Source of the DNA: Massalongia carnosa
Lineage: Eukaryota
Direction: 5' to 3'
Assembly (NCBI GenBank): GCA_965645245.1
Contig: OZ287086.1
Coordinates: 496,001-560,000 of the forward strand
Length of the DNA: 64,000 bases
Part shown: positions 44,574-50,203 of the stretch, one piece after another
How positions within the stretch are numbered: position 1 is the stretch's first letter
Layout: each line of letters begins with the position of its first letter
Translations under genes and position numbers: made by a program
The notes under the pieces: model-generated
Database searches by the model: none
Seen by the model: only the letters and a program-made list of their open reading frames with translations
Told to the model about the DNA's origin: nothing

Positions 44574-47500
44574 ATGATGTGCAGCAGAGACACAGTAAAG
44601 GCCTCAGGTCTTAATATTTGGGTCACTGGCGAGCAAGACTGTAACGGACCCGAAGTAGAGTAACTAAGACAAACGATTCTTCATGGAGTTGCAGCATCAC
44701 TGACAAGCGTTTAAGCGTTATTGCAGTTCAAGGTCTCGGTGCTGATCCATATTACACATGGGTCTCGAGGCCAAATTCTGCGAAGCAACCGAAGTCTAGA
44801 AAAGCTCATCGATTCAAATTCGTAAAAAGTCGTGCTCAGACTGACAAACATCCCGATGCCGCTCAAACGACATCCGACACTGCTGAAGTCATGTGGCTTC
44901 GAGACTTGCTGCCGAACTTCGCTTCAAATGCTCGAATTGCGACATACAGTTACGAGTCAGACTGGCGAAGAGCAGACATCAAAACAAGTCTCCGCAAATG
45001 TGGGGAGCAGTTTCTTAATGTTCTTTATCAGAATCGGTCAAGTGAAACAGTTAGTAAAGCGATCGCGGGAATTCCTCATTTGTCCTTCCTAATAGTCTAT
45101 ATAGCAACGTCGTCGACCCTTGATTTTTATTGGGCATAGCCTTGGAGGCTTAGTTATTAAGCAGGTCGGTCTAGCTTGACACTAAATTTTTTTAATTACT
45201 AAGGTCCTCTTCATAGGCTCTAGTACTAGCCAATCATGGTGAAGATTTTAGAGATATTAAACTATCCACGACTGGGATCATCTTTCTTGGAACGCCACAT
45301 CAAGGAAGTGACGCTGCAGTATATGGTACATGGCTTGCTCAAGCAGTAGGACATGATAAGACGTTATTAGAGTCTTTGAAAAGAAACAGCCCTACTCTTC
45401 GTGATGTAGCGCGAGACTTCGAAACAAGTTACGTCAATGTTGATATCGTTTGCTTTTATGAAGACAAGAAAGGGTCATATGGACCTTGGCAAACCCAGGT
45501 CTCATAATATCTGTCTTCATGCGTAACTGGGATGAAAGCTTATGACTCATAGTTCGTTGATTATCAGTCAGCTTCTTTGCTTAGCAAAAGGACCATATAC
45601 CTCACTACGGATCATTCGGGGTTGAACAAATTCAATGACCCTGAAGATGAAAATTTTCTCTTGATAAAGCCAGAGGTTCAGAGAATGATTCAGAATGCGT
45701 CTCAAAGAGTCGAGGAACAGTATCACTGTAGGATTCATCTTTCATACTTTAGACTTCACGTTTTTCAAGGCTTCTCTGACTTTTTATCAGCACGTGTTGA
45801 AATCAGCGAAAAAAAACCGTTTCATGTTGAATTCAGTCTTCAGGGCATTCCTGTGATGAATCATTTTGTAGCCCGAGACGCAGAGATGACTCGATTGACT
45901 CAGATTTTATTTCCCACCACCATAGATTCAATACGTCGCAAAGTATTCATTCTTCACGGACTTGGCGGGATTGGAAAGACTCAGCTCTCCGTTGAATTCG
46001 CTCGACAACATCACAAGAACTACACCGCAGTCTTTTGGGTCGACGGCTCGACTAAGGAGAGACTGAAGCGAAGCATTGCTGACCTTGCCGGTCGACTACC
46101 ACAGCATCAGATATCTGAAAATAGCAGAAATTATTCACAGGAGAAAAGCACGAAGACGAACACGGTTGTTGATGAAATCGTTAAGGATGTGCTCAATTGG
46201 TTATCACAGTCATCAAATGATCAATGGCTGCTAATTTTTGACAACGTGGACCGAGAGTTTTTCGGATCAATTGAAGATCCGGAAGCCTTCAATGTTCAAG
46301 ACTTTTTCCCAACGGCAGATCAAGGATCTATCCTTATCACCTCTCGACTAGCCAGTTTATGGCATTTGGGTACGGATATGAAAGTGAAACCGGTCAATCA
46401 ATTGCAAGGAGAAAGTATTCTCGAGAATTGTCTTGGGCAATCCATGCAAGGTCAGTGCAATAAGAAGCATACTTGCTCAGGCATTATCTGACATCTGAGA
46501 CTTATTAGGATTATTCGAGATTGTTAATCTACTTCAAGGCCTCCCTCTAGCGATTAATCAAGCCGGCTCATACATGCGAAAAACAGGCATAAACGTGTTT
46601 GAGTACATTAAGTCATATAATCACACATGGGAAAAATTGATGAAAAAGCAGTATAGCCTCACAATTCAAGCAGGTACGGATCGCAGTATTTTGACAACAT
46701 GGATGTTATCTTTCAATCATCTTCAGGCGCAAAGTGAGGACGCAGCGAACATTTTAATGCTGTGGGCGTTTCTTGACAATCAAGATCTCTGGTATGAGCT
46801 CTTTGTATCTGCGCTGGATCGTGGTATTTTCAACGAAATGCCTGATTGGTATATCAGGTGTGCAGGCGATGAACTTGAATTTCAAGAATGCATAGGATTA
46901 CTTTTGGAATATTCCTTCATCGATGCAAAAACTGAATCATCTTCCTTCTTTATGCATCCTGTGCTTCATCAATGGTCACTTCACGCATTTGAAAAAGAGA
47001 AGACTGATATGAGCTGGCTTGCCATGATTATTGTCGCATCCGCTGTGCCTTTAGAGACTGTGCCTAATTATTCCTTCACATCGAGACGTCTTCTGCCACA
47101 TTGCGATCGTGTTTTCCCATTACTGAAGCAGCGCATACAAGAAAGCTTTTTCAACGAGATATATCCTTTATCTCTTAGCGGCGCATGTCATGAATTAGGT
47201 CGTCTGTACTCCGATCAAGGCAAAATGAAAGAAGCCGAAGAAATGTATCTGCGGGCACTGACAGGCAAGGAAAAGGCCTGGGGCGTCGAGCACACGTCGA
47301 CGCTCGACACCGTCAACAATTTAGGAAATCTGTACTCCGATCAAGGCAAGATGAAAGAAGCCGAAGAAATGTATCTGCGGGCACTGACAGGCTACGAAAA
47401 GGCCTGGGGCGTCGAGCACACGTCGACGCTCGCCACCGTCAACAATTTAGGAGCTCTGTACAAGGATCAAGGCAAGATGAAAGAAGCCGAAGAAATGTAT

Positions 47501-50203
47501 CTGCGGGCACTGACAGGCTACGAAAAGGCCTGGGGCGTCGAGCACACGTCGACGCTCGACACCGTCAACAATTTAGGAGCTCTGTACAAGGATCAAGGCA
47601 AGATGAAAGAAGCCGAAGAAATGTATCTGCGGGCACTGACAGGCAAGGAAAAGGCCTGGGGCATCGAGCACACGTCGACGCTCGACACCGTCAACAATTT
47701 AGGAAATCTGTACAAGGATCAAGGCAAGATGAAAGAAGCCGAAGAAATATATCTGCGGGCACTGACGGGCAAGGAAAAGGCCTGGGGCGTCGAGCACACG
47801 TCGACGCTCGACACCGTCAACAATTTAGGAAATCTGTACAAGGATCAAGGCAAGATGAAAGAAGCCGAAGAAATGTATCTGCGGGCACTGACAGGCTACG
47901 AAAAGGCCTGGGGCGTCGAGCACACGTCGACGCTCGCCACCGTCAACAATTTAGGAAATCTGTACTCCGATCAAGGCAAGATGAAAGAAGCCGAAGAAAT
48001 GTATCTGCGGGCACTGACAGGCAAGGAAAAGGCCTGGGGCGTCGAGCACACGTCGACGCTCACCACCGTCAACAATTTAGGAAATCTGTACAAGGATCAA
48101 GGCAAGATGAAAGAAGCCGAAGAAATGTATCTGCGGGCACTGACAGGCAAGGAAAAGGCCTGGGGCATCGAGCACACGTCGACGCTCGACACCGTCAACA
48201 ATTTAGGAAATCTGTACAAGGATCAAGGCAAGATGAAAGAAGCCGAAGAAATGTATCTGCGGGCACTGACAGGCTACGAAAAGGCCTGGGGCGTCGAGCA
48301 CACGTCGACGCTCGCCACCGTCAACAATTTAGGAGCTCTGTACAAGGATCAAGGCAAGATGAAAGAAGCCGAAGAAATGTATCTGCGGGCACTGACAGGC
48401 TACGAAAAGGCCTGGGGCGTCGAGCACACGTCGACGCTCGACACCGTCAACAATTTAGGAGCTCTGTACTCCGATCAAGGCAAGATGAAAGAAGCCGAAG
48501 AAATGTATCTGCGGGCACTGACAGGCAAGGAAAAGGCCTGGGGCGTCGAGCACACGTCGACGCTCGCCACCGTCAACAATTTAGGAAATCTGTACTCCGA
48601 TCAAGGCAAGATGAAAGAAGCCGAAGAAATGTATCTGCGGGCACTGACAGGCAAGGAAAAGGCCTGGGGCGTCGAGCACACGTCGACGCTCGACACCGTC
48701 AACAATTTAGGAATTCTGTACTCCGATCAAGGCAAGATGAAAGAAGCCGAAGAAATGTATCTGCGGGCACTGACAGGCAAGGAAAAGGCCTGGGGCATCG
48801 AGCACACGTCGACGCTCGACACCGTCAACAATTTAGGAAATCTGTACAAGGATCAAGGCAAGATGAAAGAAGCCGAAGAAATGTATCTGCGGGCACTGAC
48901 AGGCTACGAAAAGGCCTGGGGCGTCGAGCACACGTCGACGCTCGACACCGTCAACAATTTAGGAGCTCTGTACTCCGATCAAGGCAAGATGAAAGAAGCC
49001 GAAGAAATGTATCTGCGGGCACTGACAGGCTACGAAAAGGCCTGGGGCGTCGAGCACACGTCGACGCTCGACACCGTCAACAATTTAGGAGCTCTGTACT
49101 CCGATCAAGGCAAGATGAAAGAAGCCGAAGAAATGTATCTGCGGGCACTGACAGGCTACGAAAAGGCCTGGGGCGTCGAGCACACGTCGACGCTCGACAC
49201 CGTCAACAATTTAGGAGCTCTGTACTCCGATCAAGGCAAGATGAAAGAAGCCGAAGAAATGTATCTGCGGGCACTGACAGGCTACGAAAAGGCCTGGGGC
49301 GTCGAGCACACGTCGACGCTCGCCACCGTCAACAATTTAGGAAATCTGTACAAGGATCAAGGCAAGATGAAAGAAGCCGAAGAAATGTATCTGCGGGCAC
49401 TGACAGGCTACGAAAAGGCCTGGGGCGTCGAGCACACGTCGACGCTCACCACCGTCAACAATTTAGGAAATCTGTACAAGGATCAAGGCAAGATGAAAGA
49501 AGCCGAAGAAATGTATCTGCGGGCACTGACAGGCTACGAAAAGGCCTGGGGCGTCGAGCACACGTCGACGCTCGCCACCGTCAACAATTTAGGAAATCTG
49601 TACTCCGATCAAGGCAAGATGAAAGAAGCCGAAGAAATGTATCTGCGGGCACTGACAGGCTACGAAAAGGCCTGGGGCGTCGAGCACACGTCGACGCTCG
49701 ACACCGTCAACAATTTAGGAGCTCTGTACTCCGATCAAGGCAAGATGAAAGAAGCCGAAGAAATGTATCTGCGGGCACTGACAGGCTACGAAAAGGCCTG
49801 GGGCATCGAGCACACGTCGACGCTCGACACCGTCTACAATTTAGGAAATCTGTACAAGGATCAAGGCAAGATGAAAGAAGCCGAAGAAATGTATCTGCGG
49901 GCACTGACAGGCAAGGAAAAGGCCTGGGGCGTCGAGCACACGTCGACGCTCGACACCGTCTACAATTTAGGAAATCTGTACAAGGATCAAGGCAAGATGA
50001 AAGAAGCCGAAGAAATGTATCTGCGGGCACTGACAGGCTACGAAAAAGCCTTGGGACCTGAGCATAAATCGTTGTTAGACACAAGATATAATTTAGGACT
50101 CTTGTACAAGGAAAGATCTATGGTTGAGGATGCGACACATCACTTTAAGCTTGTCGTACAAGGTTATACAAGTACACTAGGATCCGAACATGGGAGACAG
50201 TAG
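44574..50203 (+). CDS. Fungal NLR: SesB-like alpha/beta-hydrolase - NB-ARC - TPR (exons 44574-44659, 44716-45049, 45105-45164, 45217-45498, 45553-45727, 45791-46450, 46509-50203)
   Basis: Six GT-AG introns join in frame. Lipase motifs: DVIAVQGLG..TW, MWLRDLLP, PLIFIGHSLGGLVIKQAL, GIIFLGTPHQGS, DHSGLNKF. NB-ARC motifs: GLGGIGKT, WLLIFDNVD, ILITSR, GLPLA, MHPVLH. Then 23 TPR units. Confidence 0.95.
47213..50110 (+). repeat. 23 x 126-bp (42-aa) highly conserved TPR array
   Basis: DQGKMKEAEE starts at 47213 and at 49985, exactly 22 x 126 bp apart. Confidence 0.98.

What the first reader, a model, noticed from the sequence alone, without database searches (positions are those of the whole stretch)
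47213..50110. NLR TPR array works like a combinatorial code at a few shuffled codons
Seen: the 126-bp units are almost identical in DNA (I saw only about two synonymous changes before the last unit). They switch between fixed codon alleles at K/Y (AAG/TAC), D/A/T (GAC/GCC/ACC), N/A/I (AAT/GCT/ATT) and S/K (TCC/AAG), with minor V/I and N/Y sites. Several alleles differ by 2-3 nt with no intermediates and occur in many combinations; units 14-16 are identical. Established: highly conserved repeats with hypervariable positions occur in fungal NLRs such as the HNWD family. Inference: sub-repeat conversion and unequal crossover reshuffle a small alphabet on the ligand-binding face, giving a rapidly re-programmable sensor.
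Basis: partly seen in the sequence, partly recalled or inferred. Interest (0 to 1): 0.75.

Follow-up and report, generated by a model that had tools for sequence, protein, structure and literature searches.

The report
Near-identical TPR sensor array, fungal NLR
This is the sensor end of an immune-receptor-like (NLR) gene of a probably lichen-forming fungus: 23 almost identical 42-residue repeats that differ only at a few groove-facing residues, a design already described for fungal NLRs.

Summary
Window 47213-50110 holds 23 head-to-tail 126-bp units. Units 1-22 differ at only 14 of 126 columns: 2 synonymous singletons and 12 non-synonymous columns in 7 codons.

The array is the C-terminal sensor of an intact-looking, five-exon NLR gene: DUF676/SesB-like hydrolase, then NB-ARC, then 42-residue KLC-type TPRs. 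It lies in a transposon-rich region. The nearest relatives are from lichen-forming Lecanoromycetes.

The four main variable positions (19, 32, 39, 42) are the ones that vary in 57-60 of 61 other near-identical TPR arrays from fungal proteins. Five of the six variable positions align with peptide-contacting positions of kinesin light chain TPRs. All four allele combinations occur for 22 of 45 site pairs, so the units have recombined internally.

This is the high-internal-conservation (HIC) NLR pattern already published: Dyrka 2014 for the same sesB-like/NB-ARC/TPR architecture, the Podospora 42PR crystal structures, and the 2025-2026 Podospora papers.

Verdict: a clean new member of a known kind. 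Polymorphism among isolates, formal positive selection, expression and the exact unit order could not be tested.

The parts
44714..45049 (+). Exon with the N-terminal part of the DUF676/SesB-like alpha/beta-hydrolase effector domain. The true start codon lies further upstream and was not resolved.
   Evidence: tblastn of Psora crenata homolog P0002, residues 70-183, 52% identity. GT donor at 45050.
45105..45164 (+). Small exon encoding the GHSLGG nucleophile elbow of the hydrolase domain.
   Evidence: tblastn of P0002 residues 187-205, 84% identity. Translation; borders.
45217..45498 (+). Exon with the rest of the hydrolase domain.
   Evidence: tblastn of P0002. Borders. ESM Atlas features of the homologous part of P0002 point to DUF676, score 0.97, family on 44% of cluster members.
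45553..46450 (+). Exon with the NB-ARC nucleotide-binding domain. It carries GLGGIGKT, LLIFDNVD and ILITSR.
   Evidence: Pfam NB-ARC PF00931, 25.1 bits against a cut-off of 23.5, E 1.2e-5. Motifs located in the spliced translation.
46509..47212 (+). Start of the last exon: the GLPLAI motif, a helical linker (weak DUF7779 match) and a degenerate first repeat that serves as N-cap (47087-47212).
   Evidence: Unit 0 differs from the consensus at 87 of 126 nt.
47213..49984 (+). Units 1-22 of the 126-bp (42-aa) TPR array, near-identical, with mean pairwise nt identity 0.960.
   Evidence: Pfam TPR_12 E 1.2e-84 and TPR_10 E 4.2e-73 on units 1-8.
49985..50110 (+). Unit 23, a diverged terminal unit with 23 nt differences from the consensus.
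50111..50203 (+). C-terminal cap and stop codon. From about 50186 the frame departs by one base from that of the homologs, so the last ~35 residues found in relatives (WETVEA...) lie in another frame.
   Evidence: Three-frame translation compared with the C-termini of P0002, P0095 and P0037. Position.

Best explanation
The array is the ligand-sensing arm of a fungal NLR (STAND ATPase). The gene runs: DUF676/SesB-like lipase-type effector, NB-ARC switch, helical linker, then 23 KLC-type 42-residue TPRs that form a long superhelix.

The units are kept almost identical at the DNA level by repeated unequal crossover and/or gene conversion between units, and possibly between paralogous arrays. This is concerted evolution. 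It erases synonymous differences in the interior units and spares the end units.

A few codons escape this homogenisation. They encode residues on one face of helix A (unit positions 32, 35, 39, 42) and one residue near the C-terminal end of helix B (position 19). Together these line the inner groove where KLC-type TPRs hold extended peptides. Exchanges with breakpoints inside a unit recombine the alleles, so gain, loss and shuffling of units produces new groove surfaces.

By analogy with characterised fungal NLRs, ligand binding would release the NB-ARC switch. Oligomerisation would follow, and the lipase-like domain would execute a cell-death or defence response.

**Shown here:** the gene architecture, DNA-level homogenisation, the site pattern, its match to the family-wide hypervariable sites and to KLC contact positions, and intra-unit recombination.

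**Inferred:** the exchange mechanism, selection for diversity, the ligand, and the downstream response.
For: **Gene architecture**
- A homolog-guided model of five exons with GT-AG borders gives a 5271-nt reading frame with no internal stop. It contains GHSLGG, GLGGIGKT, LLIFDNVD, ILITSR and GLPLAI.
- Pfam NB-ARC scores above its cut-off, and TPR_10/TPR_12 match strongly.

**Fold**
- Sequence search of the PDB: KLC1 TPR E 4e-41; Podospora 42PR entries 4y6w and 4y6c E 6e-20 and 3e-19.
- AlphaFold model of units 1-8: pLDDT 87.9, with helices at unit positions 5-23 and 28-43.
- Foldseek best hits are KLC1/2 TPRs, e.g. 7ai4_A E 8.7e-13 and 5oj8 TMt 0.87.

**Homogenisation**
- Mean pairwise nt identity is 0.960, with only 2 synonymous singletons in 22 units. 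Terminal unit 23 has 6 synonymously changed codons.
- A run of three identical units (14-16) points to recent duplication.

**Where the variable sites lie**
- The Pfam TPR_1 register puts unit positions 32/35/39/42 at canonical TPR positions 2/5/9/12.
- I mapped to KLC1 by hand, using the alignment and the anchor 'KLC1 Ile209 = 42PR position 2 of TPR1' (PMC5642895). The letters agreed for 13 named residues.
- This gives: unit 42 = R266; 32 = K340; 35 = N259/N301/N343; 39 = V305/L347; 19 = R327. All of these are named as peptide contacts in PMC6214655.
- So 5 of the 6 variable positions fall in the 9 of 42 contact positions (hypergeometric P about 8e-4, computed by hand).

**Family-wide pattern**
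- I examined 125 retrieved proteins. Of these, 117 had 6 or more chained units and 61 had mean unit identity of at least 0.80.
- Among those 61, the positions with a minor-allele count of at least 2 are: 19 in 60, 32 in 59, 39 in 58, 42 in 57 and 1 in 53. The next highest is 21 of 61.
- K and Y both occur at position 19 in 47 of 61 arrays.

**Recombination**
- 22 of 45 pairs of informative columns show all four gametes, including codons 39 and 42, which are 9 nt apart. The minimum number of exchanges (Rm) is at least 3.
- Across the 61 arrays, association between sites falls with nucleotide distance.

**Literature**
- PMC4986451 (section 17 read): the same architecture (Pa_2_10340), repeat number ranging from 2 to more than 15 among isolates, and selected sites on the concave face.
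- PMC13449251 (passages): TPR repeat exchange between HIC NLR genes, and association of HIC NLRs with transposons.
- The window itself is transposon-rich.
Against: - No allele from another isolate was seen, so repeat-number or repeat-order polymorphism is not shown for this locus.
- The excess of non-synonymous over synonymous variable columns (12:2) is not significant alone (p=0.37). pN/pS of about 3 rests on very few synonymous changes, and recombination invalidates simple tests.
- Position 25 (V/I) is not a named contact position. Position 1, hypervariable in 53 of 61 relatives, is invariant here.
- The near-universal K/Y pair at position 19 looks more like a constrained dimorphism than open-ended diversification.
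- The contact mapping is by alignment to KLC. I had no coordinates of the model to measure exposure.
- The 61 comparison arrays were picked by similarity to this very repeat, so they are not an unbiased sample.
- The reading frame departs from that of the homologs about 15 nt before the stop. The protein may therefore lack its C-terminal cap, or the assembly may have a 1-nt error.
Confidence: 0.85

Rival explanations
1. The unit number and order are an assembly product. Near-identical 126-bp units, possibly from several paralogous arrays, were stitched together, so the 'combinations' are partly artificial.
For: - HIC arrays are not recovered reliably from short-read assemblies, and long-read assemblies carry 1-bp homopolymer errors (PMC12222747, passages).
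- Hundreds of short contigs at 90-99% identity were laid on the gene in four public runs: 1707, 254, 208 and 160 contigs. This indicates many paralogs that could confuse an assembler.
- A 1-nt frame departure next to a GGG run lies just after the array.
Against: - The frame stays open through 2.9 kb with 0 indels.
- The window is a 64-kb contiguous stretch through transposons, which suggests long reads.
- A 'goes back 126' joint is present in contigs of all 4 runs, so tandem 126-bp arrays are real in these organisms.
- The site pattern is the same in 61 independent arrays, so the pattern does not depend on the unit order here.
Confidence: 0.12
2. A neutral mosaic. The array expanded recently from two or three older unit types, and recombination mixed their differences. 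There is no selection for diversity and the variable residues have no ligand role.
For: - Multi-nucleotide alleles without intermediates fit old unit types that were mixed later.
- The ratio of non-synonymous to synonymous columns is not significant (p=0.37).
- Only 2-3 alleles occur per site.
Against: - The same four positions vary in 57-60 of 61 other arrays from many Pezizomycotina.
- 5 of 6 positions coincide with KLC peptide-contact positions.
- The non-synonymous alleles are at intermediate frequency (9/13, 14/6/2, 13/8/1, 10/12), whereas both synonymous variants are singletons.
Confidence: 0.08
3. A decaying or silent copy of an expanded, transposon-associated NLR family. The array pattern would then be a relic and not a working sensor.
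For: - There is a frame departure before the C-terminal cap, relative to homologs.
- The start codon was not resolved.
- The neighbourhood is rich in retrotransposons and DNA transposons.
- Many diverged copies exist in related samples, with an excess of C>T and G>A differences: in X1, 55 and 47 against 29 T>C and 30 A>G.
Against: - 5271 nt of spliced frame have no stop, and all checked hydrolase and NB-ARC motifs are intact.
- 2.9 kb of repeats contain no stop or indel.
- The truncation removes only the last ~35 residues.
Confidence: 0.15

Closest known systems
Podospora anserina Pa_2_10340 and other HIC TPR NLRs (Dyrka et al. 2014, PMC4986451)
   Same: - Same three-part architecture: sesB-like / NB-ARC / TPR.
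- 42-residue TPR motifs with more than 85% internal identity.
- Variation confined to a few positions mapped to the concave face.
- Same proposed evolution by repeat contraction, expansion and shuffling (section 17 read).
   Different: - A different lineage: the nearest proteins are from Lecanoromycetes, with Sticta canariensis at 60% in the linker and 87% in the repeats.
- 23 units here, against 2 to more than 15 in the Podospora alleles and 21 as the largest TPR count named in that paper.
- No population data here.
- I did not see the Pa_2_10340 sequence, so its selected positions were not aligned directly to these.
Podospora anserina 42PR crystal structures (PDB 4Y6C, 4Y6W)
   Same: Natural fungal array of nearly identical 42-residue TPR-like repeats. 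Sequence match E 3e-19 and 6e-20 over 196 residues.
   Different: Less similar in sequence than KLC (72-74 bits against 144 bits). The paper describing these structures was not in the library; what I say of it is recalled.
Kinesin light chain TPR domain (KLC1/KLC2, 42PR class)
   Same: - Best sequence and fold match.
- Same 42-residue register.
- The variable positions here align with KLC1 residues R266, K340, N343, V305/L347 and R327, which bind Y-acidic peptides (PMC6214655).
   Different: KLC has 6 diverged repeats with fixed specificity, no NB-ARC domain and no DNA-level homogenisation. It serves as a structural analogue for the binding mode and is not an orthologue.
HNWD family (HET-E, HET-D, HET-R; HET/NACHT/WD40) of Podospora
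   Same: The same evolutionary regime: 126-bp (42-aa) near-identical repeats, a few hypervariable codons on the binding surface, and repeat gain, loss and shuffling (PMC12222747 and PMC13449251, passages).
   Different: A different effector (HET), a different NOD domain (NACHT) and a different repeat fold (WD40 beta-propeller). This gene has none of these three and is not a member.
HET-Z / PLP-1 type NLRs (patatin / NB-ARC / TPR)
   Same: [quoted passage not shown]
   Different: The effector there is patatin and here it is DUF676/SesB-like. No function is known for this gene.

Membership tests
Fungal NLRs with high-internal-conservation (HIC) repeats | Three-part NLR architecture: N-terminal effector, NB-ARC or NACHT, C-terminal superstructure-forming repeats | tested here: met
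   Exon model with hydrolase motif, NB-ARC (Pfam above cut-off) and TPR array in one frame.
Fungal NLRs with high-internal-conservation (HIC) repeats | Repeats more than 85% identical to each other over at least 100 residues (criterion of PMC4986451) | tested here: met
   Mean pairwise identity is 0.960 in nt for units 1-22 and 0.92 in aa over 23 units, 966 aa.
Fungal NLRs with high-internal-conservation (HIC) repeats | Variation concentrated at a few positions on the ligand-binding (concave) face | tested here: met
   - 12 non-synonymous columns fall in 7 codons.
- 5 of 6 variable positions align with KLC1 peptide-contact positions.
- Helix assignment comes from the model.
- Exposure was not measured on coordinates.
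Fungal NLRs with high-internal-conservation (HIC) repeats | Repeat-number or repeat-order polymorphism among isolates | not testable with these tools
   - No whole genome is held.
- Public runs are short contigs that break at the array.
- The 36-mer of the unit was absent from the metagenome contigs.
Fungal NLRs with high-internal-conservation (HIC) repeats | Positive diversifying selection at the variable codons | tested here: inconclusive
   pN/pS 2.97; 12:2 non-synonymous to synonymous columns, p=0.37; clustering in codons p=0.002. No codon-model test that allows for recombination was run.
42-residue TPR (42PR; Pfam TPR_10 / TPR_12) | Profile match above the curated cut-off, 42-residue period and a helix-turn-helix pair per unit | tested here: met
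   - TPR_12 278.9 bits (cut-off 30.1) and TPR_10 239.9 bits (cut-off 27.5).
- Period 126 nt.
- Helices at unit positions 5-23 and 28-43.
- KLC TPRs are the top fold hits.
NB-ARC STAND ATPase | Pfam PF00931 above its gathering score; P-loop and Walker B present | tested here: met
   25.1 bits against 23.5 on the exon translation. GLGGIGKT and LLIFDNVD are present. Naming these motifs as Walker A and Walker B is from recall.
SesB-like / DUF676 (PF05057) lipase-type effector domain | Profile match and a GxSxG nucleophile elbow | tested here: inconclusive
   - GHSLGG is present.
- Pfam found no family on the exon fragments at E<=0.01, and no DUF676 in the homolog P0002 at E<=1e-5.
- ESM Atlas features of P0002 residues 60-335 give DUF676 clusters at 0.97, with the family on 44% of members. 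This is a lead only.
HNWD family (HET / NACHT / WD40) | HET effector, NACHT domain and WD40 repeats | tested here: not met
   Pfam finds NB-ARC and TPR, and no HET, NACHT or WD40. The gene behaves like an HNWD gene but is not a member.

The most novel reading that the evidence does not exclude
The small alphabets may amount to a modular recognition code in which each 42-residue unit reads one or two residues of an extended peptide held in the groove, as TALE or PPR repeats read bases.

The alphabets in question are the K/Y pair at helix-B position 19, found in 47 of 61 arrays across Pezizomycotina, together with D/A/T, N/A/I and S/K on helix A.

On this reading, a 23-unit array would specify a long linear epitope, and shuffling units would rewrite the target in a predictable way.
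Probability: 0.07. Interest if true: 0.75.

Novelty: new member of a known kind. Interest (0 to 1): 0.25.

Why it matters
- It adds a well-resolved, unusually long (23-unit) example of an HIC TPR sensor from a lineage close to lichen-forming fungi, where NLR biology is little studied.
- The public runs suggest that this gene belongs to a large family of close paralogs in related lichen samples. That makes these fungi a possible system for studying repeat exchange between NLR genes.
- The cross-family tally made here is a compact, testable summary of where specificity should lie in 42-residue TPR sensors. It covers positions 1, 19, 32, 39 and 42, the K/Y pair at position 19, and the fall of linkage with distance.
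- It does not change the current picture of how such receptors evolve.

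Tried and rejected
- **Whole-genome search:** no genome is held for this window, so paralogs could not be counted.
- **Metagenome contigs:** an exact 36-base stretch of the unit found 0 loci. I did not use the allowed second scan.
- **Sequencing runs:** no RNA holder is listed, so nothing can be said about expression.
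- **Laying contigs:** I laid contigs only on the upstream flank plus unit 1, because the tool does not accept long repeats. The table of other letters was cut (284 rows not shown) and gave no rows inside unit 1. Allele variation at the variable codons in other samples therefore could not be read. The short inserted letters at the unit junction (table 5c) could not be decoded with confidence.
- **Earlier findings:** nothing by place or by sequence.
- **Pfam on the N-terminal exons:** no family found.
- **Higher-order repeat:** none. TRF reports period 126 only, and apart from the run of identical units no ordered pair of unit types recurs (by eye).
- **RIP as the source of the main alleles:** rejected. 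K/Y, S/K, D/A and N/A involve transversions. Only the singletons and V/I and A/T are G/A transitions, and only ATG to ATA has the TpG context (by eye).
- **Other ORFs over the array:** the frame +2 ORF 47194..50061 and the antisense ORF 49707..50084 are by-products of the repeat.

Full report
**1. The observation**

Tandem Repeats Finder reports one array at 47213-50055: period 126, 22.6 copies, 96% matches, no indels. Cut in register from 47213, it gives 23 in-frame 42-residue units inside ORF 46574..50203.

Among units 1-22 only 14 of 126 columns vary.
- Two are synonymous singletons: codon 4 in unit 1 and codon 17 in unit 5.
- Twelve are non-synonymous and lie in seven codons.
- One M-to-I singleton in unit 5 was not listed.

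Units 10, 14, 15, 16 and 20 are identical. So are 4, 8 and 13; 2 and 9; and 6 and 19.

Mean pairwise nucleotide identity is 0.960. The variable columns cluster in codons (p=0.002). The 12:2 non-synonymous to synonymous split is not significant by itself (p=0.37), and pN/pS is about 3. The last unit is diverged, with 23 nt differences that include 6 synonymously changed codons. The unit before the array is barely recognisable. This edge effect is what unequal exchange predicts.

**2. What the array belongs to**

A homolog from Psora crenata (P0002) aligns to four collinear blocks upstream of the array. With GT-AG borders this gives five exons and a 5271-nt frame without internal stops. The frame carries GHSLGG, GLGGIGKT, LLIFDNVD, ILITSR and GLPLAI.

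- Pfam finds NB-ARC above its cut-off and very strong TPR_10/TPR_12 matches.
- The N-terminal domain matched no Pfam profile. It has the serine-hydrolase elbow, and language-model features of the homologous part of P0002 point to DUF676 (0.97, a lead only).
- The architecture is therefore DUF676/SesB-like hydrolase, then NB-ARC, then TPR.
- The start codon is unresolved.
- About 15 nt before the stop the frame departs by one base from that of the homologs, next to a GGG run. This is either a real truncation of the cap or an assembly error of the kind described for long-read assemblies (PMC12222747, passages).

The nearest proteins are from Lecanoromycetes: Sticta canariensis, Psora, Pseudocyphellaria and Lasallia. 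One of the public runs that holds part of the gene is labelled lichen metagenome.

The window around the gene is full of copia- and gypsy-type retroelements and DDE transposases.

**3. Fold and position of the variable sites**

- The array matches KLC1/2 TPR domains (E 4e-41) and the Podospora 42PR crystal entries 4y6w and 4y6c (E 6e-20 and 3e-19).
- A single-sequence AlphaFold model of units 1-8 has pLDDT 87.9, with helices at unit positions 5-23 (helix B) and 28-43 (helix A).
- Its best fold matches are KLC TPRs.
- The Pfam TPR_1 register equates unit positions 32, 35, 39 and 42 with canonical TPR positions 2, 5, 9 and 12. From recall, these are the classical concave-face ligand positions.

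For a tested mapping I used the KLC1 alignment and the numbering anchor 'Ile209 = position 2 of TPR1; TPR1-4 have 42 residues' (PMC5642895, passages). The register reproduced the letters of 13 residues named in PMC6214655.

In that paper's description of the KLC1 complexes with JIP1 and TorsinA (passages):
- R266 forms a salt bridge. It corresponds to unit position 42.
- K340 forms a salt bridge. It corresponds to unit position 32.
- N259, N301 and N343 hydrogen-bond the peptide backbone, and N343 sets isoform specificity. They correspond to unit position 35.
- V305 and L347 line the tyrosine pocket. They correspond to unit position 39.
- R327 holds the C-terminal aspartate. It corresponds to unit position 19.

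So five of the six variable positions fall within the nine of 42 positions named as contacts (P about 8e-4, by hand). Position 25 (V/I, in the loop) does not. I had no coordinates, so exposure was not measured.

**4. The same sites vary across the family**

I took 125 proteins from the two searches. They were chosen by similarity to this gene, so the sample is biased. Of these, 117 had at least six chained 42-residue units and 61 had mean unit identity of at least 0.80.

In those 61 arrays, the positions with a minor-allele count of at least two are: position 19 in 60, 32 in 59, 39 in 58, 42 in 57 and 1 in 53. The next most variable positions reach 21 of 61.

The window's four main sites are four of these five. 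Position 1 is invariant here.

K and Y both occur at position 19 in 47 of 61 arrays. Each array uses about three alleles per site.

**5. Recombination**

- At the four main sites 12 of 36 combinations occur, close to free shuffling (mean 13.9).
- Only the pair 19-39 is associated: A39 always occurs with Y19 (p=0.006 uncorrected).
- 22 of 45 pairs of informative columns show all four gametes, including codons 39 and 42, which are 9 nt apart. At least three exchanges are needed.
- Because these alleles differ by 2-3 nt, recurrent mutation is an unlikely alternative.
- Across the 61 arrays, association between sites falls with nucleotide distance. It is strongest for 42 with 1 of the next unit, then 39-42, and weak for 19 with the helix-A sites. 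Crossovers or conversion tracts ending inside units would produce this pattern.
- Unequal crossover alone suffices. A separate 'sub-repeat conversion' process is not required.

**6. Other samples**

Five runs from three studies hold 0.41-0.57 of the sampled words of the gene's non-repeat part. The contigs laid on 44300-47338 are short and numerous (1707, 254, 208 and 160), at 90-99% identity. Several distinct variants occur per place, and there are more C>T and G>A than T>C and A>G differences.

This points to many close paralogs or alleles in related organisms. It is not a copy number.

A joint that goes back 126 bases is present in all four runs, so tandem 126-bp arrays exist there too. The variable codons in those samples could not be read.

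**7. Comparison with what is known**

Dyrka et al. 2014 (PMC4986451; abstract, methods passages and section 17 read) describe this pattern.
- About a fifth of the TPR repeats of fungal NLRs are highly conserved internally.
- Most are 42 residues long.
- Its selected and polymorphic sites map to the concave face.
- The authors infer that contraction, expansion and shuffling change the binding interface.

PMC13449251 (passages) adds TPR repeat exchange between genes, association with transposons, RIP-like mutation and balancing selection. PMC12222747 (passages) adds that short-read assemblies of such arrays are unreliable.

Earlier notes of this scan on other genomes reach the same filing. They are not independent evidence.

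**8. Verdict**

It restates an established model. This is a new member of a known kind, notable only for its length, its clean pattern and its lichen-related lineage.

Still open:
- polymorphism among isolates
- formal selection tests
- expression
- the ligand
- whether the C-terminal frame departure and the unit order are real

Noticed in passing
window 50186-50330: Relative to homologs (…LGxxHxETVEAxELL…), the reading frame shifts by one base next to a GGG run, so the gene's frame stops at 50203 while the homologous C-terminal cap continues in another frame. This is either a real truncation or a homopolymer assembly error.
   Followed up: partly
window 5753-11466 (+): Two long adjoining ORFs (550 and 1360 aa). 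The second carries aspartyl protease, RVT_1, RNase H, integrase and Tf2-type SH3 domains. This is a gypsy/Ty3-type retrotransposon that looks largely intact.
   Followed up: partly
window 416-1066 (+), 20982-24748 (-), 35148-38054 (+), 61628-62566 (-): Copia/Ty1-type retroelement pieces (RVT_2, rve, gag, Pol_BBD) in at least four places. The copy at 35148-38054 contains a 138-bp x2 tandem duplication at 37680-37953.
   Followed up: no
window 2403-3443 (+) and 38928-40127 (-): DDE_1 and DDE_3 transposase ORFs, from DNA transposons. Together with the retroelements they make the NLR's neighbourhood transposon-rich.
   Followed up: no
window 40807-41084: Tandem repeat of a 27-bp unit, about 10 copies at 88% matches, with 80- and 107-bp higher periods. 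It lies about 3.7 kb upstream of the NLR gene and was not examined.
   Followed up: no
window 44300-47338, in runs X1-X4: Hundreds to 1707 short contigs at 90-99% identity cover the whole non-repeat part of the gene in four public runs, with more C>T and G>A than the reverse transitions. This suggests a large family of close paralogs, possibly touched by RIP-like mutation. At several places (e.g. 44626, 44818) every laid contig in all four runs differs from the window.
   Followed up: partly
proteins P0011 (Lasallia pustulata) and others: In P0011 the residues at positions 19 (Y/K) and 1 (D/N) alternate from unit to unit over the first eight units, hinting at a two-unit super-repeat in some arrays. 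The window's array shows no such alternation.
   Followed up: no
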